A DNA stretch of 63,954 nt, the filler included, from Stramenopiles sp. TOSAG23-6 (Eukaryota), in NCBI GenBank assembly GCA_900128565.1. It is 4 parts of 4 records of this genome, joined end to end, with 100 filler letters (N's around TTAATTAATTAA, not from the genome) between each part and the next. Parts side by side here need not be neighbours in the genome. Positions count along the whole stretch, not along the records: positions 50,787 to 63,954 come from LT636173.1; 3 more parts are not named here. One strand, given 5' to 3'. Under the pieces are notes generated by a model, which worked only from the letters and a program-made list of their open reading frames with translations, ran no database searches and had not been told where the DNA came from. Every line of letters begins with the position of its first letter. The first letter of the stretch is position 1. Shown here one piece after another: positions 11,096 to 63,954 of the stretch. The position numbers were made by a program, and so were the translations under genes.

Positions 11096-14000
11096 TCATA
11101 CCTCAAACCCATTCCTTTCAGATATTTTTTGTCTTTTGGGGGTCTTTTTAGGTTGAATTTGATCTGAAAAATTTGGCTTAAATCCAATACGTTTTAAATT
11201 TTCCCACCAATTTATTCGAGCATACCATAAAGTACATTTCCTCTGTAATTCTGGAGAACGCTCTTTATATGGAATACTACCTTGAGCATCACCAAGTAGC
11301 ACAGGGAATAATTTTGATTTTTCATATTTTGGCTCATTGACAATATTGACGCCGATAATTGCTTCTGCNTGATCTAATAATTCCCACTCCTCTGAGCTTG
11401 GAAATCCTGTCGCACCTTTAGCAAGACGTTGAATATTTACTGGTNTCCCATGTCGCAAAGCCGTTACGTATTGTGAAAAACAATGTCAAATTCGAAATTC
11501 GTTACGAATGAAATTTGGTAAAAAAAAATACAATTTAAATAACTAAGCACAACGTACAATATATGACCAACTACAGTATTCGTTTTAATCATACTTTTCA
11601 TTGCAATACTTTCAACATGTTCTCCAGATTGAAATGCTAAATAACTCACTTCCCAATTATGAAGATTTCCATTTTTTTTTCGCTTATATATCGCATGTTT
11701 CCATGGTTTTTTCGGTACGAGTTCAATGGGAAGTTTTAAAGTTCTCGATCTTTTTTTTGTTACCCATCCATTATTTGAATTTTCCTGTCCCATTCCTAAA
11801 CCAAATTCTTTCAACATACTTTGTAATAATTGAGCTAATTTTTCAACACCTGTAATGCGCACACCCATGGTACGTAATGCATCCACTGATGTAGGTTGAC
11901 AGTAAGCTATTTGCTTCACCACATGATCCGGAATGACCGACACAGGAGCCATATGTAATTCAATCGCTCGTTCATTACGCCAATTGTACACTCTCTGGAT
12001 AAACTCTTTCAGATCTTTAACATATTTTGCAGCATTCATATCTCCCTCCATAGCCTTTTTTTCATATAACTGAATTTTTCGAAACCATTTTTTATGTGAA
12101 TTTGTTACAGGGCCCTCAAAACCAGCATCTTGTTCACTCTTTGGTATTTCATTTATATCTACACCTGCATTTTTTAATTCATTTTGAAGCTTTTNGATTT
12201 TTTCTGCTGCTGCCGCCTCATAGACGCGAATACTTTGTGGAACGGGCAACATGCATTGTGAGAAAATATTTTTTTTTTGGTTAAAACAAATTATATGAAA
12301 AAAATCGAAATTGAAAAAAAAAAAATTAATTTTAAATTGAAATGAATGATGAAAACAAACATAATCGATTCATTAGTTTTGATATATTTTTGACCTTTAC
12401 TTGTTAGAGAATACACATCATATGTGTTTGTATATGTAGTACCATAAATTTGTTTTGAAATTGTCTTTCTTTGTATATATTTTCCATTAAGTAACTCTGG
12501 GAGCAAACAAATTAGAAATTCAACCGATGAATGTTTCGATGGTAAATTCGATCTTTTTGTATCATTTTTGATACACTGTTTCAATCTTGTCTTTGGTAGA
12601 CTAGTGTTTTGAAGATTTTTCAAAACAATTCTTGATTCATCACCAAAGTTACGACAAAGATCATCTGCATGTATTTTGGAAAAATATTTCAAATCAAAAA
12701 AAAATTGTTAGGTACAAAATTTCGTACGAAACAAAAATTCATTTTTAAAAAAAAAAAAAAAAACATACATATTTCTCCTGGAATATACAATTATCACAAG
12801 TACCACACCTATTACCAAATGTAGGATTTTCTCCAAAATAATGCAATAAAAATCGACGTCGGCATCCTTTTGAATCACTTGTAAATGTACGTAAAGCATT
12901 TGTGCTTTTTGCTATTATTTTTTGAACGGCGACAGACTTCCCTCGGGTATAAAAGTCATTACTATACTTAGTAAAATCTGAATCTTTATATAATAAAAGA
13001 CATTCTGCAGTGAAACCATCTCGACCAGCACGACCGATTTGTTGGAAATATGCTTCAACTGTTTGTGGTGGTCCATGTATTGTGAAAAATATTTTACATT
13101 GAAATGTTTTATTAGGTACAAAAGTTCGTATGAAAAAAAAAAATATATATATATATATATATTCAAGTGTTTAAAACTAAAACGTCCATAATGATAAATT
13201 CTACGAATATCAGGTTTGTCAATACCCATACCAAACGCTAACGTTGCAGTCACTACTTGAACAGCACCTGAAAGAAACTTTTGGTGAGTGTCTTCTCGAG
13301 CATTTTTACTCATCTTACCGTGATACGACATACATTTAAACCCTAACCCTAACCTTGAAAAAGCTTTCGATAAACAAGACTGAATTTCATCCACTTCAGC
13401 TGTTGTGGGTGCATAAATGATGGTCGATCCAATTGCCATTTTATTAGAAGAAAGAATCGTATCTAGAAGAATCTGAAGATCAGAGTGAAGGCCATTTTTG
13501 CCTTTTTGTTTGACTGATATTTTTAAGTTAGAACGATCAAATGAATTAATACTCACTTTTACACTTTTTGGGTTCATTCCTAAAACCCTAATGATATCAC
13601 GCTGGACATTTGGAACTGCCGTAGCTGTAAGCGCCATCAGAGGGACATTTGGTATTGACTGGCGAAATTTGCCAAGGGCCATAAAATCTTTTCTAAAGTC
13701 ATGCCCCCATTCGCTCACACAATGAGCTTCATCAACTGCCAATAGTCCCAATTTACCACGTTGAGACAGCATTTGCAGACGAGAAAGAACGTTCCCCGAC
13801 AGCAGCTTCTCTGGAGTCAAGAAAACGACCTTGAAGACACCAGACAAAGCACGTTCGACAGTATAATCATGTTGTGCAGATCCAAGAAAACAAGCCAATG
13901 GTTCTTTTAAAACAGACCCAATGGTATTATTCATATTAATTACTTGATCCTGCATGAGACTGATGAGAGGGGAAACTACTATAGATATCATACCAGACTG

Positions 14001-40955: not shown

Positions 40956-41065
40956 ATTTAGTATTTATTGTTATTTTCTAATGATTTATACTTATGTATA
41001 AATAAAAGAATCTGTCTTTGCATTGCTTAAATTTTGTTTAATAAAAACTTAGTTATATTCTAAAT

Positions 41066-42313: not shown

Positions 42314-42317
42314 ATTT

Positions 42318-43616: not shown

Positions 43617-43622
43617 TATTTT

Positions 43623-44006: not shown

Positions 44007-44009
44007 AAT

Positions 44010-44312: not shown

Positions 44313-44451
44313 TTAAATTTTTTGTATTAGGTTTATTATATAAATCATTTTCAAAACGTTGGAATTTTTTAAAATTGTTTATTTTCAAAAATGATATTGA
44401 ACCGTTAGTGAATAGAATTTTTTTTAAAAATTTATTATTAAATTTTTTCAT
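44302..44451 (-). CDS. rpl31: Short ORF, probable ribosomal protein L31
   Basis: 49 aa MKKFNNKFLKKILFTNGSIS...ENDLYNKP filling the tatC-rps14 gap. Confidence 0.55.
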   Translation of the reverse strand: MKKFNNKFLKKILFTNGSISFLKINNFKKFQRFENDLYNKPNTKNLNEK

Positions 44452-45163
44452 TTTTTTGTTTATAATTTTTTAATAAGATTATAAGTTTTAAAGTTATTTC
44501 AAAAAATAATATAAAAGGTATAATCATAATTATTTGGCTTATTAAATCTGGAGGTGTTATAAGTGCTGCTAATATTAGAAAAATAAAATAAAATATTTTT
44601 CTATGATTAGATAACATTTCAATATTCAAAATATTTATAGTAAAAAAAAAATAAATTCATATAGGAAATTGAAATATTATAAGGAACATATAATATATTT
44701 TAATAAAAAAACTTAAATAAGTATCAATACGCCCTTCAAAAAAAATATTGAAAGGGTATTGTGTTATCTCAAATTTAAAAAAAAATGTTAATAAGTTTGG
44801 TAGGAATATTAAGTTTATAAAGAAAAATGTAAATAAAAATAAACTTAAAGATATAAATAATAAGTTTTTAATAATAGAATGTTCATATTTATATAGGCTA
44901 GGAGTTAAAAAATAAAAAATATTCAATATCAAGAAAGGTAACGTTAAAAGTAAGCTATAGATTACAAGTAGGTTTAAATAACATGTGAAAGCATTACTTA
45001 TTTCAGTAAAAATGAAATTAAAACCTTTAAATTTACTGATTGGTTTTGTTGATATATATAATAATATTTCTAAGTTGCTTGTACAAAAAATAAGATTGAA
45101 AATAAAAGCATATATTAGTATAAAAATTCGATTTTTTAATTCTGTAATATAACTAAAAAACAT
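44438..45163 (-). CDS. tatC: Twin-arginine translocase TatC
   Basis: ELKNR, FLTPSLYKYE, FQFP, ALITPPDLISQ; one internal TGA. Confidence 0.93.
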
Positions 45164-45165
45164 AT

Positions 45166-45741
45166 TTATATATTATTATTATTTCAACTTGAAAGTGAGT
45201 TGAATATTCTAAATTCTTGTGCAAATTCATTTTTTTCAAAACATACTCGCTTGATCAAATCATTATACCTTGCTGAAAGGAAACCACTTAAAGGAAAATC
45301 TTTTCGAAAAGGGTGTCCAGTAAAACCGTAATCTGTTAAAATTCGCCTTAAATCTTTATGTTTCGTAAAATTTATACCATACAAATCAAAAATTTCTCTT
45401 TCTAATCAATTACTTGATTTAAATATTTCTGAAATTGTTTGTATTGTAGAAAGTTCACTTAAGGTTGTTTTAACTCGAATTTTTGTATTAAAATTAAAAC
45501 TTGTTAATTGTAAAACTAATTCAAAACGGTTTTTTTATTCAGGGTAGTCTACACATGTATAGTCATTCACCACTCTAAATAGAGCTAATGCAAATAATTT
45601 GAGAAATTGAATAAAGTGGATAAAGCTATCTTTAAACACTTTAAAAACTAATTCACCTGTTCTTGTAAAGGCGACGGTTATTATAGAAAATCTTAAAACA
45701 TTTACTAAAGAAGCGCTGTAATTTTTAAAAACAGTATGCAT
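45166..45741 (-). CDS. nad9: NADH dehydrogenase subunit 9, with one in-frame TAA at 45535-45537
   Basis: [39 protein letters not shown]. Confidence 0.9.
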
Positions 45742-45742
45742 T

Positions 45743-46117
45743 TTATTTAAATTTAGAACTTAAAGTTAAAATTTTTTAATATTTTTTTTGCTTTAATTCT
45801 TTAGGTAAAACACCAAAAACTCTATTCCCAATAAAATTCTTCTTTTTAGTTAAGAGTATACAATTATTTGCCCCAAAATAAAAAGAATTACTTTGATTTC
45901 GTGTTTTATTTCTTTTGGTTTGTGTAATTAAACCTAAACATATTTCTTTTTTTTTTACTTTTATATTACCTTTTTTACGTAACTTTTTTACAGAAACAAC
46001 AATAAGGTCACCTATTGTTCCGTAACTGTGGTTAGCTTTACCTAAGATTTTGATGCATTCAACGGATTTAGCACCTGAATTATCTGAAATATTTAATAAA
46101 GTTCCTGGTTGTATCAT
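45743..46117 (-). CDS. rpl14: Ribosomal protein L14, with in-frame TAA at 45776-45778
   Basis: DNSGAK, GDLIVVSVK, GNRVFG; conserved tail KILTLS lies after the first TAA. Confidence 0.9.
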
Positions 46118-46118
46118 T

Positions 46119-46634
46119 TTACTTTATAAGTATGTTATGTATTTTAAAAAAAAATAAATTTTCTATTATATTGTTATTAGATAATAAAAAATCAATTTTT
46201 AGGTTTTTCAATAGTAGAAAGTGTTCAAATTCACTTTCAAGTTCAGTAAATATAGAAATATCTTCTATATTACAACTGTATAAGTTATTAGTTTTATTGG
46301 GGTTTAATCCTTTAAAAAATTGTATTTGTGGTAAATATATATGTAAAAATTTATTAAAAAAATCATTTAAATCTTTTTTAATTAAAGATGTAGAACATCC
46401 AGTAATTTTGGGTTTTAAACTTTTATTTTTATTTTTTGTTTCTTTTTGTAAAACAGGTTTTGTGTTTGTTATTAATTTTAGTGCTACCAATGCTGGTAAT
46501 GTAGTTTTCCCATTTTTAATATCAAATTTAAAATCAATTCTATTTAAATTTGGTATTTCTTTTGGGTGTTTATAACTAAATTTTTCTAGATATAATATAC
46601 GAATTCGTTGGTTAAAAAAATCTATGTTATCCAT
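46119..46634 (-). CDS. rpl5: Ribosomal protein L5
   Basis: IPNLNRI, LITNTKP, GCSTSL, IFTELE; next to rpl14. Confidence 0.85.
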   Translation of the reverse strand: MDNIDFFNQRIRILYLEKFSYKHPKEIPNLNRIDFKFDIKNGKTTLPALVALKLITNTKPVLQKETKNKNKSLKPKITGCSTSLIKKDLNDFFNKFLHIYLPQIQFFKGLNPNKTNNLYSCNIEDISIFTELESEFEHFLLLKNLKIDFLLSNNNIIENLFFFKIHNILIK

Positions 46635-46697
46635 GTATTGTATTTAAGTTTTTCTTTATTGTTGTATTTCTAAGTTCTAAATTATAAAAAAAATTAA

Positions 46698-47003
46698 TTA
46701 AAATCTTATAATCATTGAATTTACTGCTATATTATTACGTATTCTATAAAACATTACAACAAGTCCTAAACCTATAGCAGATTCTGCTGCTCCTAAAGTT
46801 AAAAAATGTAATGAAAATAGTTGTCCTAAAATATCATCTAAAAACCTTGAATATATTATAAAGTTATAATTAATGCTTAAAAGCATTAATTCAATAGATA
46901 TGAAAATAATTATTATAGATGTTCTATTTAAAATTATACCTAAAAAAGAAATTGTTAAAAGTGAAATTGAGATTATTAAATACTTAGTTAAACTTATAGG
47001 CAT
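46698..47003 (-). CDS. nad4L: NADH dehydrogenase subunit 4L
   Basis: SIELMLL, GQLFSL, AAESAIGL. Confidence 0.95.
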   Translation of the reverse strand: MPISLTKYLIISISLLTISFLGIILNRTSIIIIFISIELMLLSINYNFIIYSRFLDDILGQLFSLHFLTLGAAESAIGLGLVVMFYRIRNNIAVNSMIIRF

Positions 47004-47011
47004 TTTAAAAA

Positions 47012-48019
47012 TTAAAGGTAAAAAATATTATATAAACTATCAAATCCTATTAGGATCCCCGCGATAAAAAACAACCATCCTAAAGTTAAAGGTACAAATA
47101 CTTTTCAACCTAAATACATTAGTTGGTCATAACGGAATCTTGGTAGCATTGCTCGGGCAAGTATAAATAATGAAGCAAAAAATAAAATTTTTAAACTAAA
47201 TCAGAAAGGTCCAGGTATAATATTTAAAAAGTCTAAAGGTGCAAATCAACCTCCTAAAAAGAAAATAGAGATAACCCCACACATTGTTAAAATATTACTA
47301 TATTCACCTAAAAAAAACAAAGCAAACCCCATAGCGGAATATTCAACACTATAACCTGAAACTAACTCAGCTTCAGCTTCTGGTAGATCAAAAGGGTGCC
47401 GGTTAGTTTCAGCTAAAGCTGAAACAAAAAATACCAAAAACATTGGGAATAGGGGTAAAACATACCATACTTGTTTTTGTGCGAAGACTATATCTGTTAA
47501 GTTTAATGAACCTGCACATAAAAAAACTGTTAATACAGTAAAACTTATAGCAATTTCATAAGAAATCATTTGTGCTGCAGAACGTAATGCCCCTAAAAAA
47601 GCATATTTTGAATTACTAGATCACCCTGCCATAATTATTGTATATACACTTAAAGATGATATAGCAAAAAAATAAAGTACACCTAAATTTAAATTAGCTA
47701 TAACCGCATTGTTACCAAAAGGGATTACAACTCAGGCAAGTAGTGCTAGTATAAATGTAAAGATTGGTGAAAGGACAAAAATAATAGGGTTACTAGAACT
47801 AGGTATGATTGTTTCTTTTAATATAAGTTTAACACCATCAGCAATAGCTTGTAATAACCCAAAAAAACCTATAACATTAGGTCCTCGACGTCGTTGTACA
47901 GAAGACATTAATTTTCTTTCTAATAAAGTAAAAAATGCTACAGTAACTAATAAAAGAATTATTAAAATAAGGCTTTTTAAGATAATTGAAATAACAAAAA
48001 GTGTCAGTTTTGATAGCAT
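47012..48019 (-). CDS. nad1: NADH dehydrogenase subunit 1
   Basis: ERK...[40 protein letters not shown]=Trp. Confidence 0.97.
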
Positions 48020-48035
48020 CAAAATATTTTTTGTA

Positions 48036-50090
48036 TTAGTTGAAATTAATTTTAGTAGTGCTTAATGAGGTTTTATTCATAATTCTTGAATTTTTGGTAA
48101 GAATATCTGTTACATAAAAATCTCGTATGTTTGGCTTAGATACATAATTATTTTTATAATTTGTTTCTAAATTAGAATTGATTAGTATTGTTTCTTTAAC
48201 ATATTTCTTTGTCAATAAAAATTTATAATTATTTTCAAAAGTTTTCATTAAAGTTTTTTGATTTGTTATTTTAACATCATAGTTTAAATATTGTAGAAGC
48301 GCTGTAAAAATTTTTCAATCTTGTCGTGATTCTTTTTTCCCTGCATGGGCTTTTTTAGTTTTTTGCAGAAAACTATTAATATTTAAAAAATGGTTTTCTG
48401 ATTCAGTAGTTGTAAGGCTTGGTAAAAAAAGATTAATGTTATTAATATCATTAGTACCATGAGAACCTATATAAATTACTTTAGTTTTTTTATTTAAAAG
48501 GTTTAAATTTATTTTATCTGTATTTAGTAAAAATACAGTATGAAGTTGTTGTAACTTTTTTAAATTAATAGATTGTAAACCTAATTCACAAGCATTAATA
48601 AGGCCCATGTTTGTTGTTAGGTGGTTTATTGCATTATAATCTTTGGTATACAATGAATTTAGATTTCTTTTTAAAATAGAATAAGTTGCATTTGTATTTT
48701 TACTTACTTCATTATTACCAAAAATTATTATTGGTGTTTTAGCTTTTTGTAGGTTTTTAACAGCTAAATTAGATCCTTCTAAAAATTGGTAATTATTATT
48801 TAAATTTAAACCTAAAGACTTTGATTCATAACCAAGGTTTTGGAATGGTCCAGTATAGTAAACTTTCATACGACCATTATAAACATTTTTACGTAATCTT
48901 ATTTGTAAGGCAGATGCCTCTTTTTTAGGGTTAGCTTCTATAAGGTAACAAAAATCAGTATATTCTAATAATTTTAATGTTGTATTAAATTTATAATTAA
49001 AAGGTAAATTTAAATTATATTGTGACTTTGTAATAAGCTCATCATTAAATAATAATGAACTTCCATTTAAATTTAAAAATGTTTTTGCAATCAATAAAGT
49101 TTCTAAACTTGTAAATTTACTTGAAACAATACCTATTTTATTATTTGCTGCCTTTGTAGACAGTTTTATAAACTTAAAAACATCTTTTCAACTTTTTGTT
49201 TCAAAGGTGTTATTAACTGTTTTATATTTTGGAAAAACTAGTCTTTGGATATTTAAACTATCATAATAAAACCGTGTTTTATCAGAAATTCATTCTTCAT
49301 TTATAGAATTATTAAAACAAGGTGTTATATTGATTATTTCATTACCTTTTAAATTTAAAGCAACGTTGGACCCAACGCTATCTAAAACATCAATACTTTC
49401 AACTTGTTCAAGTTCTCATAAACGTCCTTGAAATGCTGATGGTTTTGCTGTTAGAGCACCTAATAATTGAAAGTTTATTTTTTTTGTAAAATTACTTACA
49501 GGGCATAAATCTATAACATTTCCAGAAAGTTCAGATTGAAGTATACTTTTAATGTATGAACCAATTTCAGTTTTTTTACCTCGACCGGTAGTACCTAATG
49601 TAGTTACACCTGCAATTTCATGAGCGAAACGTATACATCTAGTACAATGGATACAACGTGTCATAATAGTTTTTATTAACGGACCACCTATCTTATCTTC
49701 AACACTTCTTTTTTCATTGTAAAACCTACCGCTATCAGAACTATAAAAAAATGATTGATCTTGTAAGTCACATTGCCCACCTTGATCACAAATAGGACAA
49801 TCTAACGGGTGATTTAATAATAAGAATTCCATAACGGCTTCTCTTGCTTTTTGAACCGTTGGTGTATTTGTAAAAATTTTAATACCTTCCATTACTGGAA
49901 AGGTACATCCTGTTACAGGTTTTGGAGACTTTTCTATTTCAACTAAACACATTCGACAATTTCCTGCTATTAATAAACGTTCGTGGAAACAAAAACGGGG
50001 TAGGTCGATACCTACTTGAGTACAAGCTTGCAATACTGTTGTATTGTTAGAAACTTTAAACGAAATACCATCAATTTCAATATTTACCAT
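48036..50090 (-). CDS. nad11: NADH dehydrogenase subunit 11, unsplit (TGA=Trp)
   Basis: [51 protein letters not shown]; one frame throughout. Confidence 0.95.
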
Positions 50091-50121
50091 TGATTTTTTA
50101 ATTTATATTATGGTTATTTTA

Positions 50122-50208
50122 CGGAAAGGGTGGGGTTCGAACCCACGAAGCAGCAATTGCTGCGTTAGTTTAGCAAACTAATACTTTAAACCACTCAGTC
50201 ACCTTTCC
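50122..50208 (-). tRNA. trnS: tRNA-Ser(GCT)
   Basis: Cloverleaf, long variable arm, anticodon loop TTGCTAA, GGTTCGAAC. Confidence 0.92.
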
Positions 50209-50210
50209 TT

Positions 50211-50283
50211 CGAGAACGACAGGACTTGAACCTGCACAAACCGGTTCGACAAACCGGTACTCTACCAATTAAGCTACGCTCCC
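50211..50283 (-). tRNA. trnD: tRNA-Asp(GTC)
   Basis: Anticodon arm CCGGT-TTGTCGA-ACCGG; GGTTCAAGTCC. Confidence 0.92.
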
Positions 50284-50686
50284 TTTTTCATAAATAAAGA
50301 ATATTAATAAAGAAGTTACTAATATATTCAAATCTAAGAAATAAAAAATAAAATCATTAAAACCTACAAAAGTTATTAAACATACTACACTAATTAACAT
50401 TACAAAAGTGTAATGGTATATTAGCCCAGTTTGTAGTTTTAATGCGTTAAAATGTTTATTATATAATAAGCTAGATAATCCAAAAGGTCCAAAAAATTCA
50501 ATAAAACCACGATCTACTAGTTTATAAGTACCATTATACCCTATTTTTAGTGTAAATTGGTTAATAGTTTTATTATATAATTTATCTATAAATCACTTTC
50601 GATTAAAAAAATTATAAAATTGTAGACCAAAAGATGTTATCTTAAATTCATAAATATTTTTAATTTTTAATTGATAATATAAAATA
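50269..50686 (-). CDS. nad5: NADH dehydrogenase subunit 5, 3' part
   Basis: NRKWFIDKLYN, DRGFIEFFGP, LQTGLIYHY. Confidence 0.92.
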
Positions 50687-50786
50687 NNNNNNNNNNNNNN
50701 NNNNNNNNNNNNNNNNNNNNNNNNNNNNNNTTAATTAATTAANNNNNNNNNNNNNNNNNNNNNNNNNNNNNNNNNNNNNNNNNNNN
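50687..50786. other. Artificial contig linker
   Basis: N-run, TTAATTAATTAA, N-run. Confidence 0.99.
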
Positions 50787-51660: not shown

Positions 51661-52131
51661 TTTTTTTTTTTTTTTTTTTTTTAAAGGAAATTCCGCACAG
51701 TTATTCAACAAAAACGTTTACCGCAACTCACCAAAAAAAAAAAAAGATGATCTCTATACCGTCGTTGATGATTAATACAATGAATTATCCAAAGAGTTGA
51801 TGATGCTTCACTTTGGTCTATGTAGAATCGTAATCTGATGAAATATTTTGGTTGCTTTTGTGGTGCAGAAAAGAGCGCCCTTTGTTTTTTTGCTCTCACA
51901 CAGCAGTCGGTTATAATTTTTAAAAAACCCTAACCCTAGTAAATATAAGCGATCTAGATCCAATAATAAATATTTAACGGTTGTTCATTTTTCATTTGCG
52001 CAACGTATCCTATATGTAATAATAATAATCGATTATTAAAGAAGATCACTGTATTAAACCATTTTACTTCATCACGTACATACTACATTTTCACTACAGC
52101 TATATCAAAGTAAATTCATTCACTGTGCAGA

Positions 52132-55100
52132 ATGCTGTCTCATGAAATAGCATCAGGAACGAATAAAGAAGTTCAGCAGAAGACAAATGCTTTAAAGGAT
52201 AAAGTGAGTGTGAAAATTGTTGCTCAGAACACCAAAAATCGTAAACCTCAACTTTCAAAGACATCTCCAAATGATGTGCATGTTGAATATGGAAATTACG
52301 AAATGGATGAAAGACAGGAAGTTCAATCTGGGTGCTTTTTACTGTTTTTACTCATAATTATTTTGGTCACTTTTCTTTTAACGTGGTCAACATATTCAAT
52401 CATTGAGTATGCAGATGGAAACGTGAATGATACATACATTTTTGGGTCGAGTGCACCTGCTTTACTCCTAATTATACTGGGTATCATGATCTACATTCTC
52501 CGAATTCGTAATAAGTCTTCGAAAAACGTCATTAATAATACAACATTATGTATTATTATGATACTATTAATGAGTGGCGCAGCTGTTGGAGGTTATTTTT
52601 CGATTAAAGAATTGTATGGTAAAAATTCATTTTGTGAGTATATGCGAAGCTTTCAAGTGAACATAAATCCCAATGAAATTTGTCAACGAAAACAACTGCT
52701 TGAAGAAATGGATAATAACATCAACGCCCATAATTCAAGTAATACAGAATGTTCAGCTAGTCAATCTAAATTAAGTCATCAAACGGAACTTGAAGTATTG
52801 CACTCACTTGGACTTCATGATGCTGAAGGTCTGTACAAACAATTTTTTGGCGGTTACTCTAGTACCCTGTCGTTGACCAATTATGATGCATGTACAAAAA
52901 TCGATTGGTCCGATGGAACAAAGAATGCAGAATGTACAGCTAAAGTTTCTCAAGCTGTAACACCTCCAAAACACCAAGGCGATTGCTCATCATCTTGGGC
53001 AATGGTGACAGTTGCACTTATTGAATCAGCGTATGTCATCCAAAGAGACGTAAAAGATGTCGTACCTTTTTCCGTTGAACATATTGTCAATTGTCAACCT
53101 ACTGTAAACGTAAATGGTAAAGATTATCATGGTTGTCATGGTGGGAATGCCGTATTTGCTTTACAGCAACTGAAATCTGAGGGTATCTGCACTGCTGAAA
53201 AGTATCCTTATTCATACTATAATCCAGCTGAAGTAACGAAATGCCTTGACAGCTCAAACTGTGATAAGTCTGTTGAAGCTCTTGAAACTAAAGCATTTGA
53301 GTATGAAACAGGAAAGGCGTGCAAAAATGAAATCACAGAGAAATGTACAGATGTGAGTGTAAAAAACATTTATAAAGTGGCAGAAGATGGGACAATGACA
53401 GAGGCTCAAATAAAAAAGGTACTTGCAAACAAAGGTCCAATTGCTATTGGGCTAAGTATAGACATTGCAAATGTGGGCGATTTTATGAAGAAACATACCT
53501 GCATCATTACTCCAACATGTGGCAATGTCACAGAATCCGGTTTAATTGTTGGTTACGATGAAACTGATTCTAATAACAAATATTGGAAAGTAAAAATGTC
53601 ATGGGGTGAGGAAATTGGTACTTTCTTGTCATACATTTTCATTTTTTTTTTCTTTTACCAAAAATAGTACCTAACAAATTGTATTACTGTAAAACATATC
53701 TTTTTTCATAATAGGTGAAGGTGGATTCATAAAACTCAAAATGGGAAGTGAAAAGTGTTTATATGATGGGTATTTTGTGGAAATAAATGATATTTCAGTA
53801 AAAACTCCGCCACCTACGGATCCAGTAAAAAAGCAACAAGTGGAGGCTGCGATAAAAACGGCAAGCGAAGGACACAAAAGTGTATTTTTTTTTCATGCAA
53901 ACATGAATGATTTTAGGTTTTAAATGATCATTTTTTATTTATTTTAAATATGTATGACATATTGTAAAGATTATTTACAGTATTTTCGGCTTATCTTCAA
54001 AAGATGAATGATTTTTGCTTTTACATGATAAAAGTTGTTATTCATTTGCAATACTATTTTGACATATTGTGTAGATTATTGCAAGTATTTTGGTTTTTCT
54101 TGCAAACATGAATTAGGGTTAGCTATTAAATGATAACAATGATTTTTTATATACAATATAATTGACATATTGTACAGATTATTGGATGTATTTTTGCTCT
54201 TCTTGCAAACATGAGTTAGCGTTAGCTATTAAATTATAATAGTATTTATTTATTTGAAGTACTCTTGACATATTGTGCAGATTATTTGCTGTATTTTTGT
54301 TTTTTCTTGCAATGATGGATGATGATTACTTTAGAATGATGAAAATGTTGATTTATTTCAAAAACCATTGACATATTGTATAGATTATTGAATGTATTTT
54401 TTTTTATTCAAAAGATGAATGATGATTACTTTTAAATGATAATAATGTTGATTTATTTCATATACTATTGACATATTGTACAGATTACTTGCTGCATTTT
54501 ATTTTTCTTGCAAAGATTATTAATGTTAGATTTTAAAATAACGATGTAAATTCATTTGAAGTACTATTGACATATTGTACAAATTATTGGTTATATTTTT
54601 GTTTTTCTTGCAATGATGGATGATGATTACTTTTACATGATAATAATGTTGATTTATTTCATATACTATTGACATATTGTACAGATTATTTGCTGTATTT
54701 TTGTTTTTCTTGCAATGATGGATGATGATTACTTTTAAATGATAAAAATGTTGATTTATTTCAAAAACCATTGGCATATTGTATAGATTATTGTTTGTAT
54801 TTTTGTTTTTCTTGTAATGACGGATGATGATTGCTTTTAAATGATAATAGTGTTGATTTATTTCATAAACTATTGACATATTGTACAATTTTTTTAACAT
54901 ATTTTTGTTTTTCTTGCAATGATGGATGATGATTACTTTTAAATGATAATAATGTTGATTTATTTCAAAAACCATTGACATATTGTATAGATTATTTGCT
55001 GTATTTTTGTTTTTCTTGCAATGACGGATGATGATTACTTTTAAATGATAATAATGTTGATTTATTTCAAATACTATTGACATATTGTATAGATTATTGT

Positions 55101-58100
55101 GCGTATTTTTGTTTTATTCAAAAGATGAATAATGTTNGCTTTTAGATGATAACAATATTTTATCATTTACAATATCTATGACATATTGTACAGATTATAG
55201 GATGTATTTTTGATTTTAATCAAAAGATGAATGATTTAGCTTTGAAATGATAATAATGCTTATTCATGTACAATATCCATGACATATTGTACAAATTATT
55301 GAAGGTATTTTTGTTTTTCTTGCAAAGATAAATTATGCTAGATTTTCAATAATATCAATGTTGATTCATTTTAGATACTTTTGATATATTGTACATATGA
55401 TTTTGTGTATCGTTGCTTTTCTTGCAAATATGAATAATGTATGCTTTGAAGAAACAACGTTGATTCATTTAAACTGCTAGTAACATATTGTACAAATTAT
55501 TGAAGGTATTTTTGTTGTTATTCAAAAGATGAATTATATTTGGTTTTAAATGATATCAATGCTTATTGATTTGAAATACTAGTGACANATTATGTAGATA
55601 ATTGGCAGTATTTTTGGCTTTATGCAAAAGATGAATGATGTTTGATTTTAAATGATAATATTTTTTATTCATTTTAAATACTATTGACATATTGTAGAGA
55701 TTATTGAGCGTATTTTTGAATTTGTGGAAAAGATGAATGAAGTTTGATTTTAAATAATAATATGTTTTATTTGTTTAAATACTATTGACATATTGTACAG
55801 ATTATTGGCAGTATTTTTGGATTTATGGAAAAGATTGATGGCGTTAACATTTAAATGATAATTAAATGATGATTTATTTTAAATACTATTGATATATTGT
55901 ACAGATTATTGTGGGTATTTTTGTTTTTGTTGCAAAGATGAATATTGTTTGCATTTTATTGATAACAATGTTCATTCATTGAAAATATTATTGACATATT
56001 GTAGAGATTATTGTACGACAAATGGATAAATTTGGTATTTTTGTTTTTATTCAAAAGATGAATAATGTTTGCATTTATATGATACAATATTTATTTATTT
56101 CAAATACTAGTGACATATTGTAGAGATTATTGGCCGTATTTTTGTTTTTGTGGAAAAGATGAATAATGTTTGCTTTTATATGAAAAAAATGTTGATTTAT
56201 TTAAAATACTATTGACATATTGTACAGATTATTTCCAGTATTTTTGTTTTTCTTGCAAATTTGAATGATGTTTGCTTTTATATGAAAAAAATGTTTCTCA
56301 TTTCAAATACTATTGACATATTGTGTAGATTATTTCAAGTATTTTTGTCTTTATTCAAAAGATGAATAATGTTTGCTTTTATATGATAAAAATGTTTATT
56401 TATTTAAAATATTAGTGACATATTGTAGAGATTATTGTCTGTATTTTTGTTTTTATTCAAAAGGTTGAATGATGTTTGCTTTTTAATGATGAAAATGCTT
56501 ATCTATTTCATATACTATTGACATATTGTAGAGATTATGGACTGTATTTTTGTTTTTGATCAAAAGATGAATAATGTTTGCTTTTTAATGATACTAATAT
56601 TTATTTTGTATACTAGTGACATATTGTACATATTATTTAATGTATTTTTGTTTTTAATCAAAAGATGAATACTGTTTTCTTTCAAATTACACCAATGTTT
56701 AATCATTTCCAATACTGAGGACATATTGTAGACATTATTAGACGTATTTTTGTTTTTATTCAAAAGGTTGAATGATGTTTGCTTTTTAATGATGAAAATG
56801 CTTATCTATTTCATATACTATTGACATATTGTAGAGATTATGGACTGTATTTTTGTTTTTGATCAAAAGATGAATAATGTTTGCTTTTATCTGAAAAAAA
56901 ATGTATATTTATTTCAAACAATATTGACATATTGTATGGATTATTGGAAGTATTTTTGTTTTTATTCAAATGATGAATGATGTTTGCTTTTACATGATAA
57001 AAATATTTATTTATTTCATATACTATTGACGTATTGTAGACATTATTGTACGTATTTTTTTTTTATTCAAAAGATGAATACTGTTTAGGGTTAGAATGAT
57101 ATAAATGTTGATTCATTTCAAATACTATTGACATATTGTAGAGATTATTGATGGTATTTTTGTTTTTATTCAAAAGATGAATAATGTTTGCTTTTATATG
57201 ATGAAAATGTTGATTTATTTCATATACTATTGACATATTGTACAAAATATTGACAGTATTTCTGTTTTTATTCAAAAGATGAATAATGTTTGCCTTTATA
57301 TGATGAAAATGTTGATTTATTTAAAATATTAGTGACATATTGTATAGATTATTGCTTGTATTTTGTTTTTATTCAAAAGATGAATGGTGTTTGCTTTAGA
57401 ATGATATCAATGTTTATTTATTTTGTATACTATTGACATATTATACAGATTATTGGACGTATTTTTGTTTTTCTTGCAAATTTGAATGATTTTTGCTTTA
57501 GAATGATAAAAATGTTTATTTATTTCATATATTATTGACATATTGTAGACATTATTGCAAGTATTTTTGTTTTCTTGCAAAGATGAATTATTTTAACTTT
57601 TACTTGATAACAATGTTTATTCATTAAAAATACTATTGACATATTGTAGAGATTATTTCGAGTATTTTTGTTTTCATTCAAAAGATGAATGATGTTTGCG
57701 TTTTAATGATAAAACTGTTTATTCATTTCATACACTAGTGACATATTGTAGACATTATTGATCGTATTTTTCTTTTATTCAAAAGGTTGAATGGTGTTTG
57801 CTTTTTAATGATAAAATTGCTTATTTATTTTGTATACTATTGACATATTGTACAGATTATTTCGAGTATTTTTGTTTTTTTTCAAAAGATGAATGATGTT
57901 TGCTTTGAAATGATAAATATGTTGATTTATTTCATATACTAGTGACATATTGTAGGCATTATTGAACGTATTTTTGGTTTTATTCAAAAGGTTGAATGAT
58001 GTTTGCTTTTGCATGATGAAAATATTTATTTATTTCAAATACTATTGACATATTGTACAGATTATTGCAAGTATCTTTGTTTGTATTCAAAAGATGAATG

Positions 58101-61100
58101 GTTTTAGCATTTTAATGATAATAATGATTATTTATTTCAAATACTATTCACATATTGTACAGATTATTGCCTGTATTTTGGTTTTATTCAAAAGATGAAT
58201 GATGTTTGCTTTAGAATGATATCAATGTTAATTTATTTAAAATACTATTGGAATATTTTACAGAGTATTGTATGTATTTTTGTTTTTATTCAAAAGATGA
58301 ATGATGTTTGCTTTTGCATGATGAAAATGTTTATTTATTTCAAATACTATTAACATATTGTATATATTATTGGCTGTATTTTTGTTTTATTCAAAAGATG
58401 AATGATGTTTACTTTAGAATGATATCAATGTTTATTTATTGAAAATAGTATTGAAAATATTGTAGAGATTATTGACCGTATTTTTGTTTTTATTCAAAAG
58501 ATGAATGATTTTAGCTTTTAAATGATAAAAATGTTGATTTAATTTGTATACTATTGACATATTGTACAGATTATTTAATGTATTTGTTTTTATTTAAAAG
58601 ATGAATGATTTTAGCTTTTAAATGATAAAAATGTTGATTTATTTTGTATACTATTGACATATTGTAGATATTATTTGAAGTATTTGTTTTTATTTAAAAG
58701 ATGAATGATTTTAGCTTTTAAATGATAAAAATGTTGATTTATTTCAAATACTGTTGACATATTGAATAGATTATTGACTGTATTTTTGTTTTTATTCAAA
58801 CAAAGAAAGATGTTTGATTTTGACATGATAAAAATGTTTATTTATTTCAAATACTGTTGACATATTGTAGAGATTATTAAAAGTATTTTTGTTTTTGTTC
58901 AAAAAATGAATACTTCTAGTTTTTAAATGATGTCAATGACTGTTTATTTCATATACTATTGACGTATTGTAGACATTATTGTTTGTATTTTTCTTTTATT
59001 CAAAAGGTTGAATGGTGTTTGCTTTTTAATGATAAACTGTTTATTTATTTATTTTGTATACTAGTGACATATTGTAGAGATTACTGGAAGTATTTTGTTT
59101 TTATTTGAAAGATTAATAATTTTAGGTTTAAATGATAACAATTGTTATTAATTTAAAATAGAATTGACATATTGTACAGATAATGCACCATATTTTGGTT
59201 TTTCTTACAAAGATGAATAATGTTTGCTTTTCAATGATAATAATGTTTATTCATTGAAAATACTATTGATATATTCTGAAGATTTTTTTGTGTATTGTTG
59301 TCTTTCTTGCTCTGGCAGATACTGATTTTTACTAAATATCAATATGTATTTATTTCATACACAAGTTACATATTGTAGAGATTATTGGCTGTATTTTTGT
59401 TTTTCTTACTATGATAAATGATGTTGGCTTTTGAATACAAAGAATGTGTTTTCATTTCCAATACAATTGACATATTGTACAGATTACTTGATGTATTTTT
59501 ACATTGGTGTAAAGATGAATAATATCAACTTTTAAATGATAAACATGTTCATTTATTTCAAATACTATTGACATATAGTTCAAATTTTTGTTTGTATTTT
59601 TACTCTTCTTGAAAAGATTAGTGATGGTTGCTTTTATATGATATTAATGTTTATTCATTTGTAAATACTATTGGCATATTCTCCAGATTATTGCGAGTAT
59701 TTTTATTCTTCTTGCATAGATGAATGATGGTTGGGTTTAATTGATAGTAATGATCATTTATTAATAATACTATTGACATATTGTAGACATTATTGACTGT
59801 ATTTTTGGTTTTATTCAAACAATGAATGATGTTTGCGCTTAAAGGATCATAATTATTATTTATTAATAATATTATTGACATATTCTAAAGATAATTTGAA
59901 GTATTGGGATTTTCCCTGCAGAAATGATTCATGTTTGCTTTGAAAATAACAATGTTTATTTATTTACAAAACTATTGACATATTCTAAAGATAATTGTGT
60001 GTATTTTTAATGTTGTGCCTATTCCAATATTGTTGGCTTTGAAAATAAAAACGGTTATTCATTTCAAATACTATTTGCATATTGTACAGGTCATTTGAAG
60101 TATTTTTGGTTTTCCTGCAAATATGAATATTATAACTTTTTCAATGATATCAATGTTTATTTATGTCAAATACGTTTGACATATTGTACAGATTATTGCG
60201 GGTAAATTTGTAGTTCTTACAAAGATAAATGATGCTAACTTTTGAAATAATGTTTATTTATGTCAAATACATTTGAGATATTGTATAGAGTATTGGCAGT
60301 ATTTTGGTAGTTCTTGCAGAGATGAATGATTTTAACTTTTAAAAAAAGGTTGATTCATTCGAAATACTATTGACATATTGTATAAATTATTGAAAGTATT
60401 TTTGAATTTTTTCCGAAGATGAATGATGTTCAATTTTTAAAGAATGTTTGTTTGTCCATTTCAAATACATTTGACATATTGTATGGATTATTGGCCGTAT
60501 TTTTGTTTTTATTCAAACGATGAGTGATGTTTTCTTTAGAATGATCACAATGTTTATTTATTTCAAATACAATTGATATATTGTATAGATTATTGACCGT
60601 ATTTTTGTTTTTCTTGAAAAGATGAATAATGTTTGCTTTAAAGTGATGAAACATTGATTCATTTTAGATACTATTGACATATTTTATAGATTATTGTTTG
60701 TATTTTTGTCGTTCTTGCAATGATGAATGATTTCACCTTAAATGATGGCAATATTTATTCATTTGAAATACGATTGACATATTGTTCAGATTTTTGTGCG
60801 TATTTTTGTTTTTCTGCATATATATGAATGGATTGTCCTTGTAAAGATTTAATTATATATTCATTTACAAAACAAGTGACATATTGTGTAGATTATTTCG
60901 AGTATTTTTGTTTTTTTGCATAGATGAATGATTTGTCCTTGTAAAGATTACATTATATATTCATTTCAAATACTATTGACATATTGTAGAGATTATTGTC
61001 AGTATTTTGTTTCTATTCAAAGGATGAATGGTGTTTGCTTTAAAATGATATCAATATTTATTTATTTCATATACTATTGACATATTGTAGACATTATTGA

Positions 61101-63943
61101 CTGTATTTTTGTTTTTATTCAAAAGATGAATGGTTTGAGCATTTTAATGATAATTAAATGATTATTTATTTCAAATACTATTGACATATTGTAGAGATTA
61201 TTGGCGGTATTTTTGTTTTTATTCAAAAGATGAAAAGTTTTTGCTTTAGAATGATAAAAATGTTGATTTATTTTGTATACTAGTGACATATTGTATAGAT
61301 TATTGGACGTATTTTTATTTTTATTCAAAAGATGAATGATGTTTGCTTTAGAATGATAAAACTGTTTATTTATTCAAAATACTGTTGACATATTGTACAG
61401 ATTATTGAAAGTATTTTTGTTTGTATTCAAAAGATGAATTATGTTTGCTTTTATATGATAATAATGTTTATTTAGTTAAAATATTAGTGACATATTGTAC
61501 ATATTATTGGGCGTATTTTTGTTTTTATTCCAAAGATGAATAATGTTTGCTTTTTAATGATAACAATGTTTATTTATTTTGTATACTAGTGACATATTGT
61601 ACATATTATTTGATGTATTTTTGTTTTTATTCAAAAGATGAATGATGTTTGCTTTAGAATGATATCAATGATTGTTCATTTAAAATACTATTGACATATT
61701 GTATAGATTATTGGATGTATTTTTATTTTTATTCAAACGATGAATAATGTTTAGTATGATAACAATGTTTATTTATTTCAAATAATGCTGACATATTGTA
61801 CAGATTATTTGTGGTATTTTGATTTTATTCAAAATATGAATAATGTTTGCTTTTAAATAATGACAGTGTTTATTCATTCAAAATATTACTGACATATTGA
61901 ATAGATTATTGAGAGTATCTTTGTTGTTTATGAAAAGATACCAAATTTATAGTTTGTAAAGATAATGTTATTTATGCATGTATAATACTATTGACATATT
62001 AGAAACATTATTATTGGGAGTATTTTGTGCTTTCTCTCAAAAATGGATGATCTTTGCTCGAAATAAAGTCAATATTGATTCATTTGAAAGATTGTTAATG
62101 TATTGTGCAAATTATGTTTAGTAATTTTGTTTCTCTTGGAAAGATAAATTATCTAAGCTTTCAAAAAAAATGTTTATTCATTTCAAATACTAGTGACATA
62201 TTGTATAGATTATTCAAGGTATGTTTTGTTTTTCTTTAAAAGATGAATAATGGTAGGTTTGAAGTGATAACAATATTTATTCATTTAAAATACAATTGAA
62301 ATATTGTATAGATTTTGATGTGTATTTTTGTTTTTGTTGTAAAGATGAATGATGATAGGTTTGAAGTGATAAAAANAATTATTCATTTGAAACACTAGTG
62401 ATATATTGTATAGATTATTTGNTGTATTTTTNTTTTTCTTNAAAAGATAACAATGTTTCCTTTTAAATGATAACAATATTTATTTCTTTCACTAGTGATA
62501 TATTGTTGAGATTATTGTTGGTACCTTTGCCTTTCTTGCAAAGTTTTGATTATTTTTTCTTTGGTATGATAAGAATAGTTATTTATTTGAAACACTATTG
62601 ATATATTGTATAGATTATTGGATGTATTTCTGTTTTTTTCAAAAAGAATGAATAATTTTTGTTTTTAAATGATATCAATGATTATTCATTTCAAATACTA
62701 GGGACATATTGTATAGATTATTTGACGTATTGGAATGTTCCTTGCAGAAAAAAATTGTGTTTACTTTGAAAATAACAATGTGTATCTATTTACAATACTA
62801 TTGACATATTCCAAAGATAATTGTGTGTATTTTTTTTTTGTGCTCCTTTTAATACTGTTGGTTTTGAAAATTAAAATGGTTATTTATTTAAAATACTTTT
62901 GACATATTGTATAGATTCTTGACAGTATTTTTGCTTTTCTTCAAAAGATGAATACTGTTGACTTTACAATGATAAAAATATTTTTTCATTTTAAATAGTA
63001 TTGACATATTGTAGAGATTATTGCAAGTATTTTTGTTTTTATTCAAAAGATGAATGATGTCTGCTTTTTTACATGAGAAAAATGTTTATTCATTTAAAAT
63101 AGTTTTGACATATTGTAGAGATTACTGTTGGTATTTTTGTTTTTATTCAAAAGATGTATTATGTGTGCTTTAGAATGATATCAATGTTTATTTATTTCAA
63201 ATACTATTAAACTATTGTAGGCATTATTGGGCGTATTTTTGTTTTTATTCAAAAGATGAATAATTTTAGTTTTTAAATGATATCAATGATTGTTCATTTC
63301 AAATACTATTGACATATTTTACAGAATATTGTGTGTATTTTAGTTTTGGTACAAATATGAGTGATGTTTACTTTTGAAAAGCAAAATAAGTCATTGAAAA
63401 TCTCTTTTGACATATTGCACAGATTATTGGTTGTATTTTTTTTTTATTCAAAAGGTTGAATGGTGTTTTCTTTGAAATGATAATAATGTTTATTTATTTC
63501 AAATACAATTGACATATTGTAGAGATTATTGGTTGTATTTGTGTTTTTATTCAAAAGATGAATAATGTTTGCTTTTATATGATAAAACTGTTTATTCATT
63601 CAAAATACTATTGACATATTGTAGAGAGTATTGAACGTATTTTTATTTTTATTCAAAAGATGAATACTGTTTGCTTTAGAATGATATCAATGTTTATTTA
63701 TTTCAAATACTAAGTGACATATTGTAGACATTATTGGGTGTATTTTATTTTTATTCAAAAGATGAATAATGTTTAGGGTTAGAATGATATAAATGTTTAT
63801 TTATTTCAAATACTACTGACATATTGTAGACATTATTGGCGGTATTTTTGTTTTTATTCAAAAGATGAATGATGTTTGCTTTTAGATGCTAAAAATGTTT
63901 ATTTATTTCCTACACCAGTGACATATTTTACAGATTATTGAAT
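52132..63943 (+). CDS. Membrane-anchored papain-family (C1A) pseudoprotease with micro-exon-encoded C-terminal extension; runs off window
   Basis: Exons 52132-53617 and 53715-53881 are well supported (QGDCSSSWA, SVEHIVNC, GCHGG, IVGY, YWKVKMSWG, GEGGFIKL). The 99 micro-exons from 53977 on are inferred. Confidence 0.75.
53618..53714 (+). other. Canonical GT-AG intron carrying the family-A core
   Basis: GTACTT...GTACCTAAC...CATAATAG; restores SWGEEIGEGGF. Confidence 0.88.
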
Positions 63944-63954
63944 GTATTTTCAAT
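53882..63954 (+). repeat. Array of ~99 ~102-bp units: ~99-nt conserved intron-like unit (family B) plus 3-nt variable exon
   Basis: Consensus GTATTTTTGTTTTTATTCAAAAGATGAAT...TACTATTGACATATTGTAsAGATTATTk followed by NNN; the repeat itself is certain, the intron reading is inferred. Confidence 0.9.

What the first reader, a model, noticed from the sequence alone, without database searches (positions are those of the whole stretch)
53882..63940. Array introns lack AG acceptors; 3' site appears set by distance from a TGAC motif
Inferred 3' ends are mostly TG, often TT, rarely TA/GG/GC/TC/GA, and AG only once (55199-55200). Donors are GT except GC (54494) and AT (54593, 54899, 59190). The end lies almost always 18 nt after a branch-like TAyTGAC/TAGTGAC motif. 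Many units have an AG 7 nt upstream that is not conserved (CAT, GAC, CAA variants). Inference: a ruler-type, AG-independent 3' splice-site choice, or a non-spliceosomal or DNA-level excision.
Basis: partly seen in the sequence, partly recalled or inferred. Interest (0 to 1): 0.88.

Follow-up and report, generated by a model that had tools for sequence, protein, structure and literature searches.

The report
Gene tail built from one-codon exons
Behind the last normal exon of a papain-like protease gene lie at least 99 near-identical introns of about 99 bases, each followed by what looks like a single codon, and none can be spliced by the usual AG rule; if RNA confirms it, this is the most finely chopped coding sequence known.

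Summary
Positions 53882-63954 (+) are 99 head-to-tail units of about 102 bp. Each unit has a GTATTTT start, a TTGAC motif, a conserved 18-nt spacer, then three hypervariable bases. Unit ends are TG 66, TT 23, AG 1 of 99.

The triplets behave like codons:
- The array is entered in phase 0 from the last ordinary exon of a C1 peptidase gene.
- There is no stop in 106 codons.
- The only two longer inserts are 6 and 21 nt.
- Triplet composition fits this genome's codon usage.
- Triplets stay saturated with differences where flanking introns are 90-96% identical.
- Every reading with larger exons, or with the upstream AG, meets stops.

AG-independence is not special to the array. Ordinary transposon-like introns of other genes in the window also end without AG. 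A RecQ helicase intron shows this by alignment to solved WRN and RecQ structures.

A pure distance ruler is not shown. The spacer sequence is itself conserved, and ordinary introns have 32-44 nt between branch motif and 3' end.

No RNA contig crossed the junction, so splicing is inferred, not seen. Best reading, at 0.55: a chain of single-codon exons removed by a spliceosome with relaxed 3' site rules.

The parts
52114..53617 (+). Large ordinary exon of a papain-like (C1) cysteine peptidase gene. The frame is open from 52114; the start codon was not fixed. A hydrophobic segment lies near the N-terminus.
   Evidence: Open frame 52114..53667. Pfam PF00112 Peptidase_C1, E 1.4e-29, residues 279-503 of the 508-aa translation. 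Nearest of 1.84 billion representatives is only 34% identical.
53618..53714 (+). Ordinary 97-nt GT-AG intron with a TACCTAAC branch-like motif (starting 53668), phase 1.
   Evidence: Read from the sequence. It joins ...WGEEI-G-EGGFIK... in frame.
53715..53881 (+). Last ordinary exon. It ends with codon AGT (53879-53881), so the array is entered in phase 0.
   Evidence: Frame of ORF 53693..53923 and sequence. No Pfam family. No relative in two protein searches.
53882..63954 (+). Array of 99 units: an intron-like 94-102 nt stretch plus one hypervariable triplet. It runs off the end of the window.
53977..53979 (+). First one-codon exon (ACA). The others follow each core end listed: 54082-84, 54185-87, 54288-90 ... 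63941-43.
   Evidence: table; 97 of 99 inserts are 3 nt.
54163..54184 (+). Example of the 3' module: TGAC (branch-like) plus the conserved 18-nt spacer ending TG.
56014..56034 (+). The one 21-nt insert (7 codons, no stop) in place of a triplet.
62014..62019 (+). A 6-nt insert. Alternatively, a 3-nt exon 62017-62019 behind a spacer lengthened by ATT to 21 nt. This unit could tell a ruler from sequence recognition once RNA is available.
   Evidence: reading of the sequence.
55199..55200 (+). The only unit whose last two letters are AG. In any reading that adds the preceding TTG position to the exon, this is a TAG stop.
62316..62318 (+). TGA just before the triplet of unit 84. It closes the 6-, 9- and 12-nt exon readings.
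   Evidence: core ...GATTTTGA then TGT.
13075..13187 (-). Ordinary introner-type intron in a RecQ/WRN-like helicase gene. It lies between direct repeats ATGGAC and has no possible AG end.
50687..50786 (.). Artificial linker (N run, TTAATTAATTAA, N run). The contig that carries the array starts at 50787.

Best explanation
The array is the 3' part of the papain-like peptidase gene. Each unit is an intron of about 99 nt followed by one codon (once 2 codons, once 7).

Proposed mechanism: the introns are removed from the pre-mRNA one after another, defined across the intron. The signals would be a 5' site GTATTTTTG, a branch-like TAYTGAC, and a conserved 18-nt 3' module whose last letters are TG or TT instead of AG. 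The codons are thereby joined into a hydrophilic, cysteine-rich tail of at least 106 residues.

The machine is most likely the cell's ordinary spliceosome. In this organism it does not need AG at the 3' end, because the transposon-like introns of other genes also end without AG.

Shown: the anatomy, the codon-like behaviour of the triplets, and the non-AG ends of ordinary introns.

Inferred: that the array is transcribed and spliced, that the TGAC adenosine is the branch point, and how the 3' end is chosen.
For: 1. Phase. The preceding exon ends on a full codon at 53881.

2. No stop in 106 codons: 97 triplets plus 7 plus 2, one of them GNT. By my hand calculation this has a chance of about 0.02 with the triplets' own per-position composition. 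With the array's base composition it is about 1e-4.

3. The only two length variants are 6 and 21 nt.

4. Codon-likeness. The log-likelihood of 105 triplets is -605 bits under the codon usage of the window's long open frames. It is -630 under a uniform model, -648 and -629 under the two off-frames, and -687 under the array introns' 3-mers. Synonymous choice scores -148 against -161 uniform. G+C at the three positions is 0.51, 0.48 and 0.31, against 0.22 for the array as a whole.

5. Uncoupling. Unit pairs with 90-96% identical introns (29 pairs) differ at 67-80% of triplet sites. Pairs with 60-85% identical introns differ at about 72%. Only the one pair with identical introns shares its downstream triplet. 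Something keeps the triplets different while the introns are kept alike.

6. All other frames close.
- Exons extended by TTG, TTATTG or AGATTATTG meet TAG at 55198-55200 and TGA at 62316-62318.
- 10-nt exons from the upstream AG meet TGA in unit 5.
- A 27-nt exon meets TAG wherever position -10 is G.
These are read by hand.

7. The genome context allows non-AG ends.
- The RecQ exon pieces align to WRN chain 9rti_A up to G326 and from G326/A327 onward without a gap. The intron must therefore be cut inside the direct repeat ATGGAC, where none of the 7 equivalent cuts ends in AG.
- With the 5' end at G[TG]AYGT, the end '...ATACAT' is in frame in 6 of 6 introner-type introns.
- The nearest AG is in frame in only 2 of 6, and 3 of 6 have no in-frame AG nearby.

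8. An independent seawater DNA run holds a contig with a further unit (triplet GGT) that matches none of the 99 in the window (table 7).
Against: - No RNA evidence. None of the 3 RNA runs laid has a contig that reaches 53881 or shows a joint or loose end there.
- The one RNA contig over the ordinary intron's 3' end (X8, 53661-53797) is unspliced. These libraries may therefore carry DNA or precursor RNA.
- In RNA run X7 a 31-letter contig of the array intron has depth 50 where the exon contig has 2.2. That ratio is no lower than in DNA run X3 (65 against 4.9). There is thus no sign that the intron is depleted in RNA. This is weak, because the word is multicopy.
- The joined peptide has no significant match among the 150 nearest representative relatives of the peptidase (best E 0.019). 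Those relatives are at most 34% identical to the query.
- The branch-like motif differs from the TACCTAAC of all ordinary introns seen.
- Position -10 is nearly as variable as the triplets.
- More than 99 successive removals at poor 3' sites should be inefficient.
- The reference codon set held 108 in-frame stops in 7110 codons, so some reference frames were wrong.
Confidence: 0.55

Rival explanations
1. Untranslated satellite. The gene reads through 53882 and ends at the stop 53921-53923, 13 codons into the first unit. The rest is a tandem repeat in the 3' untranslated or intergenic DNA. The triplet is a mutation-prone or otherwise selected spot with no coding role.
For: - Head-to-tail array with higher-order period 204.
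- No RNA joint seen; array words are as abundant relative to the exon in an RNA run as in a DNA run.
- No consensus RNA structure, and units fold no better than shuffles (z -0.13 to +2.04 in 10 of 10).
- No precedent for one-codon exon chains in two literature searches.
Against: It does not explain the following:
- Absence of stops.
- Codon-like, position-specific composition.
- G+C twice that of the surroundings.
- Inserts of 6 and 21 nt only.
- Phase-0 entry.
- Triplets staying saturated between units whose introns are 90-96% identical.

A satellite homogenised by conversion should homogenise the triplets too.
Confidence: 0.2
2. Ordinary AG-dependent splicing at the AG 7 nt upstream (or the first AG after the branch motif). 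This gives 10- or 12-nt exons, so the protein ends shortly after the array begins and the rest is spliced non-coding RNA.
For: AG at -9/-8 in 71 of 99 units, and some AG after TGA in 85 of 99. The ordinary intron just upstream is GT-AG.
Against: - 14 of 99 units have no AG at all.
- The frame closes at a TGA in unit 5, by hand. About 94 further introns would then lie behind a stop codon.
- The 7 conserved exon letters and 3 variable ones get no explanation.
- Ordinary introns of this genome demonstrably do not need AG.
Confidence: 0.08
3. The units are removed, but not by the spliceosome. Either they are cut out of the DNA in the expressed nucleus, as in ciliate internal eliminated sequences, or a different RNA-processing route removes them.
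For: Non-AG ends. The ordinary introns carry short direct repeats and terminal inverted repeats like transposon remnants. This is the pattern discussed for Amoebophrya introners, where a distinct mechanism was proposed (PMC7789003, passages read).
Against: - Array units have no terminal inverted repeat or flanking direct repeat.
- They do have a yeast-like GTAT 5' end in 95 of 99 and a U2-compatible branch-like motif.
- Standard genetic code and long open frames.
- No DNA contig lacking units was seen; no joint in DNA run X3.
- No stable fold brings the ends together.
Confidence: 0.07

Closest known systems
Micro-exon genes (MEGs) of schistosomes
   Same: A run of very short symmetric exons, each a multiple of 3, between ordinary exons of genes for secreted proteins. 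Skipping any of them keeps the frame.
   Different: MEG exons are 6-36 nt with ordinary GT-AG introns that are not copies of each other. Here the exons are 3 nt, there are at least 99 in a row, the introns are a homogenised tandem repeat, and they do not end in AG.
Non-canonical introner elements of Amoebophrya (PMC7789003; abstract and passages read)
   Same: A marine protist genome in which repeated, transposon-like introns with short direct repeats and inverted repeats are removed without GT-AG ends. The window's ordinary introns look like this.
   Different: The array units are tandem, not dispersed (0 of 88 core matches outside the array). They lack inverted and direct repeats and keep GT in 95 of 99. 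The window's organism also comes with a gene-rich mitochondrial contig. Amoebophrya is reported as possibly lacking a mitochondrial genome.
Non-GT/AG introns of the tunicate Fritillaria borealis (bioRxiv 10.1101/2025.08.15.670264; abstract read)
   Same: A major-type spliceosome that has been retuned to accept 3' ends other than AG genome-wide.
   Different: An animal. There the 5' ends are non-GT as well, and no tandem one-codon exons are described in the abstract. U2AF duplication was not testable here.
U12-type (minor) introns (recalled)
   Same: The 3' site may be non-AG and is set largely by a short distance from the branch site.
   Different: The defining 5' site RTATCCTT and branch site TCCTTAAC are absent. 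The distance here is 19 nt rather than about 10-15.
Recursive splicing at ratchet points, and isolated 3-nt exons of animals (search listings only: PMC8632122, PMC8042270)
   Same: Stepwise removal in which a new 5' site follows a 3' site directly or after a few nucleotides. Single 3-nt exons exist.
   Different: Those are single sites with AG/GT. No tandem chain was found in the two literature searches.

Membership tests
U2-type GT-AG spliceosomal intron | GT (or GC) at the 5' end | tested here: met
   GT 95, GC 1, AT 3 of 99.
U2-type GT-AG spliceosomal intron | Branch-site motif able to pair with U2 (YNYTRAY) | tested here: inconclusive
   TGAC sits at the fixed place in 70 of 99 units, and TATTGAC fits YNYTRAY. 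It differs from the TACCTAAC of every ordinary intron seen. Branch use is not testable.
U2-type GT-AG spliceosomal intron | AG at the 3' end | tested here: not met
   AG in 1 of 99 units, if the exon is the triplet. Using the upstream AG closes the frame (by hand).
U2-type GT-AG spliceosomal intron | Removal from RNA | not testable with these tools
   No RNA contig reaches the junction.
U12-type intron | 5' site RTATCCTT and branch site TCCTTAAC about 10-15 nt from the 3' end | tested here: not met
   The consensus is GTATTTTTG, with TATTGAC 19 nt from the end. The defining motifs are recalled.
Introner (transposon-derived intron) | Near-identical copies dispersed in unrelated genes | tested here: not met
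   For the array unit: 88 of 88 core matches lie in the array; the rest of the genome is not held. For the ordinary family GTAYGTTTT...TACCTAAC...AATACAT: met, with about 14 copies in several genes.
Introner (transposon-derived intron) | Terminal inverted repeats and target-site duplication | tested here: not met
   The array unit has neither at its ends. An inner AAATAC complementary to the GTATTT start lies 25 nt before the 3' end. Ordinary family: AT or longer direct repeats, and GTAY...RTAC ends.
Micro-exon gene | Series of symmetric exons whose length is a multiple of 3, between ordinary exons | tested here: met
   97 inserts of 3 nt, one of 6, one of 21; phase 0. The downstream ordinary exon is not in the window.
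Micro-exon gene | Exons joined in mRNA, with alternative use | not testable with these tools
   One search gave no joint.
Non-coding satellite DNA | Homogenised tandem units without position-specific selection | tested here: not met
   Triplets escape homogenisation and are codon-like.
Eliminated DNA (ciliate-type IES) | Conserved boundary repeats (such as TA), and a DNA form without the element | tested here: not met
   No boundary repeat. No joint in DNA run X3, though it covers only the first units.

The most novel reading that the evidence does not exclude
The array is a splicing-based diversity generator. All introns carry the same 5' and 3' modules and every exon is one phase-0 codon. 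Any 5' site can therefore be joined to any later 3' site without losing the frame. Each transcript would then carry a different ordered subset of about 100 or more codons, giving a membrane-bound or secreted protease a variable cysteine-rich tail. New coding sequence would also be added one codon at a time by unit duplication.
Probability: 0.15. Interest if true: 0.95.

Novelty: new variant of a known kind. Interest (0 to 1): 0.8.

Why it matters
If RNA confirms it, this would be the extreme case for how small and how many exons can be. Current models of exon and intron definition do not foresee 99 or more consecutive 3-nt exons.

It would also be a natural test bed with about 100 near-identical introns for two questions. 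One is how a 3' splice site is chosen without AG. The other is whether distance or sequence sets it: units such as 62014-62019 and 56014-56034 are built-in variants.

It shows that standard gene finders will truncate such genes. It adds an organism outside dinoflagellates and tunicates to those with widespread non-AG splicing. It also offers a visible route by which coding sequence could grow codon by codon.

Tried and rejected
- RNA and DNA runs: 4 runs laid on 52114-54090. No contig covers 53830-53961, and there is no joint and no loose end at 53881, so there is no verdict on splicing.
- Whole genome: not held.
- Metagenome scan for the unit: one hit, L001. It is a chance match in an AT-rich contig with no array.
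- Scan of prokaryote genome contigs: 0 hits.
- Protein searches with the last ordinary exon: no relative among longer proteins or proteins of similar length.
- Blastp of the in-silico joined peptide against the 150 representative relatives of the peptidase: nothing significant.
- Rfam on the whole window: nothing in the array. tRNA scan: nothing in the array. I had considered an anticodon reading of the triplet. I rejected it because TCA and TTA occur among the triplets while TAA, TAG and TGA do not.
- Hairpin-defined excision of array introns: no consensus structure, and z-scores of -0.13 to +2.04 in 10 of 10 units.
- Hairpins in ordinary introner-type introns: only weak end pairing (4 bp in 2 of 5; z -0.17 to -2.31).
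- Exon readings of 6, 9, 10, 12, 26 and 27 nt: rejected for stops (by hand).
- Covariation of first and last intron letters: the 3 AT-starting introns all end in TT. Two of them are near-duplicates, so I give this no weight.
- Earlier scan notes: nothing relevant.
- Two scripts gave no result and the script machine was then lost. These would have covered the first/last letter table, a direct-repeat test at array junctions, and an automated AG-scanning model. The AG-model result given in this report is by hand.
Full report
WHAT IS THERE

The window is not one piece of DNA. Three linkers (N run, TTAATTAATTAA, N run) at 17003, 33869 and 50731 join at least four contigs. The contig of interest starts at 50787 and runs off the window's end.

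It carries, on the + strand, a gene for a papain-like cysteine peptidase:
- an open frame from 52114, with Pfam Peptidase_C1 at E 1.4e-29;
- an ordinary 97-nt GT-AG intron at 53618-53714, with a TACCTAAC motif;
- a last ordinary exon at 53715-53881, which ends on the full codon AGT.

Directly behind it begins a tandem array with period 102, 99.1 copies and 75% matches.

CHECK OF THE OBSERVATION

I located 99 units by their 23-nt core. None has an insertion or deletion in that core.

Each unit reads, in order:
- GTATTTTTG;
- about 60 less conserved A+T-rich letters;
- (C)TAYTGAC;
- ATATTGTAnAGATTATT(G/T);
- three hypervariable letters.

- Starts: GT 95, AT 3, GC 1.
- Ends: TG 66, TT 23, TA 3, GG 2, and AG, GC, GT, TC, GA once each. 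The single AG is at 55199-55200.
- An AG lies 7 nt upstream in 71 of 99 units.

TGAC plus 18 nt plus a triplet plus GTAT occurs 73 times in the window, against 1.65 expected. Of these, 70 are in the array. The core with up to 3 mismatches occurs 88 times, all in the array.

Entropy is 1.91, 1.98 and 1.86 bits at the triplet, against 0.4 or less at most neighbours. Positions -10 (1.78), -8 (1.22) and -1 (1.13) also vary. In a 91-unit alignment only the triplet reaches 1.8 bits three times in a row.

ARE THE TRIPLETS CODONS?

Several independent lines say yes.

1. The array is entered in phase 0.

2. The 97 triplets, the 6-nt insert and the 21-nt insert give 106 codons without a stop. By hand, from the per-position composition, the chance is about 0.02. 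From the array's base composition it is about 1e-4.

3. The only two length variants at this spot are multiples of three. Elsewhere in the unit, lengths drift (units of 97-105).

4. The triplets fit the codon usage of the window's long open frames.
- Codon usage: -605 bits.
- Uniform model: -630 bits.
- The two off-frames: -648 and -629 bits.
- The array's own 3-mers: -687 bits.
- Synonymous choice also fits: -148 against -161 uniform.
My reference set was not clean (108 in-frame stops in 7110 codons). That should blur the signal, not create it.

5. The triplets are uncoupled from their introns.
- Pairs of units with 90-96% identical introns differ at 67-80% of triplet sites.
- Unrelated pairs differ at about 72%.
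- Only the one pair of identical introns shares its downstream triplet.
Introns are therefore kept alike while the triplets are kept different. That is what purifying or diversifying selection on a coded peptide would give. A neutral satellite would not.

6. Other exon definitions fail (read by hand).
- Adding TTG, TTATTG or AGATTATTG to the exon brings in TAG (55198-55200) and TGA (62316-62318).
- The 10-nt exons from the upstream AG run into TGA in unit 5.
- 26- and 27-nt exons meet TGA or TAG.

The joined peptide is hydrophilic and rich in Ala, Thr and Asp. It has 8 cysteines where about 2 are expected.

WHAT SPEAKS AGAINST

There is no RNA evidence.
- Of 9 runs listed I laid 3 RNA runs and 1 DNA run on 52114-54090. 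RNA contigs cover parts of the peptidase exons at depth about 2. None reaches 53881, and there is no joint or loose end there.
- The RNA contig of X8 (53661-53797) crosses the ordinary 3' splice site unspliced. These libraries may therefore hold DNA or precursor RNA.
- A 31-letter array word has depth 50 in RNA run X7 against 2.2 for the exon. DNA run X3 shows a similar ratio (65 against 4.9). This gives no sign that the introns are depleted in RNA.
- X3 does show an independent unit (triplet GGT) that is not among the window's 99.

The joined peptide has no significant match in the 150 nearest representatives of the peptidase. These are at most 34% identical to the query. The last ordinary exon has no relatives at all.

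THE GENOME CONTEXT CHANGES THE READING

Most ordinary introns in the window belong to one transposon-like family. Its layout is GTAYGTTTT ... TTTGTACCTAAC ... AAAATAC, followed by AT. The ends are inverted repeats and there is a short direct repeat.

For the RecQ/WRN-like gene:
- The upstream piece aligns to WRN chain 9rti_A up to ...HYG (G326).
- The downstream piece aligns from G326/A327 (G-PPQTVE against G-APKDME) with no gap.
- The intron (13187-13075, minus strand) must therefore be cut inside the direct repeat ATGGAC.
- None of the seven equivalent cuts ends in AG. The two AGs nearby are out of frame.

Across six such introns:
- The end '...ATACAT' is in frame in 6 of 6.
- The nearest AG is in frame in 2 of 6.
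- A second AG is in frame in one more.
- 3 of 6 have no usable AG.

This organism therefore removes ordinary introns that do not end in AG.

RULER OR SEQUENCE?

The distance TGAC-to-triplet is fixed. But the 18-nt spacer is itself one of the best conserved parts of the unit, which a pure ruler would not require. In ordinary introns the distance from TACCTAAC to the inferred end is 32-44 nt.

Structure does not define the ends either.
- No consensus fold.
- Ten of ten units fold no better than shuffles.
- Ordinary introns show at most a 4-bp end helix, in 2 of 5.

Unit 82 is a natural test case. It reads either as a 6-nt exon at 18 nt, or as a 3-nt exon behind a spacer lengthened by ATT to 21 nt.

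COMPARISON AND NOVELTY

Non-GT/AG splicing on a genomic scale is known from two places:
- Amoebophrya, whose introners have direct and inverted repeats (PMC7789003, passages read);
- Fritillaria (bioRxiv 10.1101/2025.08.15.670264, abstract read).

Micro-exon genes, U12-type distance dependence and recursive splicing are recalled, not read.

Single 3-nt exons are in print (listings). Two full-text searches found no tandem chain of one-codon exons. Supplements were not available and might hold such cases.

I file it as a new variant of known kinds (micro-exon gene plus non-canonical introns), extreme in degree.

VERDICT

- The best explanation is a chain of one-codon exons with non-AG introns, at confidence 0.55. 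It stays inferred until a single cDNA read is seen.

Noticed in passing
window 17003-17014, 33869-33880, 50731-50742: The window is an artificial concatenation. Three linkers of about 44 N, TTAATTAATTAA and about 44 N join separate contigs, so neighbours across them are not physically linked.
   Followed up: yes
window about 33925-50686: One of the joined contigs is mitochondrial DNA. It holds LSU rRNA (34319-36990), SSU rRNA (37034-38526), atp9, several nad genes including an nad11-like one, ribosomal protein genes, a tatC-like frame, and tRNA-Ser and tRNA-Asp (50122-50283). G+C is about 0.21-0.27. This gene-rich layout is of the kind seen in stramenopiles and some other protists (recalled).
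   Followed up: partly
window, e.g. 9624-9743(+), 21786-21876(+), 13187-13075(-), 12768-12669(-), 7996-7905(-), 6768-6680(-), 51135(-), 50815(-), 16934(-), 17076(+): A family of about 90-120-nt transposon-like introns sits in many unrelated genes. The layout is GTAYGTTTT..CGTACGAAATTTTGTACCTAAC..AAAATAC plus AT, with inverted ends and short direct repeats (AT; once GAACTT; once ATGGAC). Their inferred 3' ends are not AG. This deserves a report of its own.
   Followed up: partly
window 16959-17058, 33825-33924, 50687-50786: Contigs often break inside or next to these introner copies and their long T or A runs. The element family probably limits the assembly.
   Followed up: no
window 56438-56590 and 56741-56890: One array unit, with its downstream triplet ACT, is duplicated exactly three units apart. 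It is the only pair with 100% identical introns. The array also has a two-unit higher-order period of 204 bp.
   Followed up: partly
window 52114-53617: The peptidase is very divergent. The best of 1.84 billion representative proteins is 34% identical (E 4.8e-20), and its own sequence is not in the library.
   Followed up: partly
L001 (metagenome contig, 3517 bp): A chance pattern hit: a very A+T-rich contig with long open frames and no array, possibly viral. Not examined.
   Followed up: no
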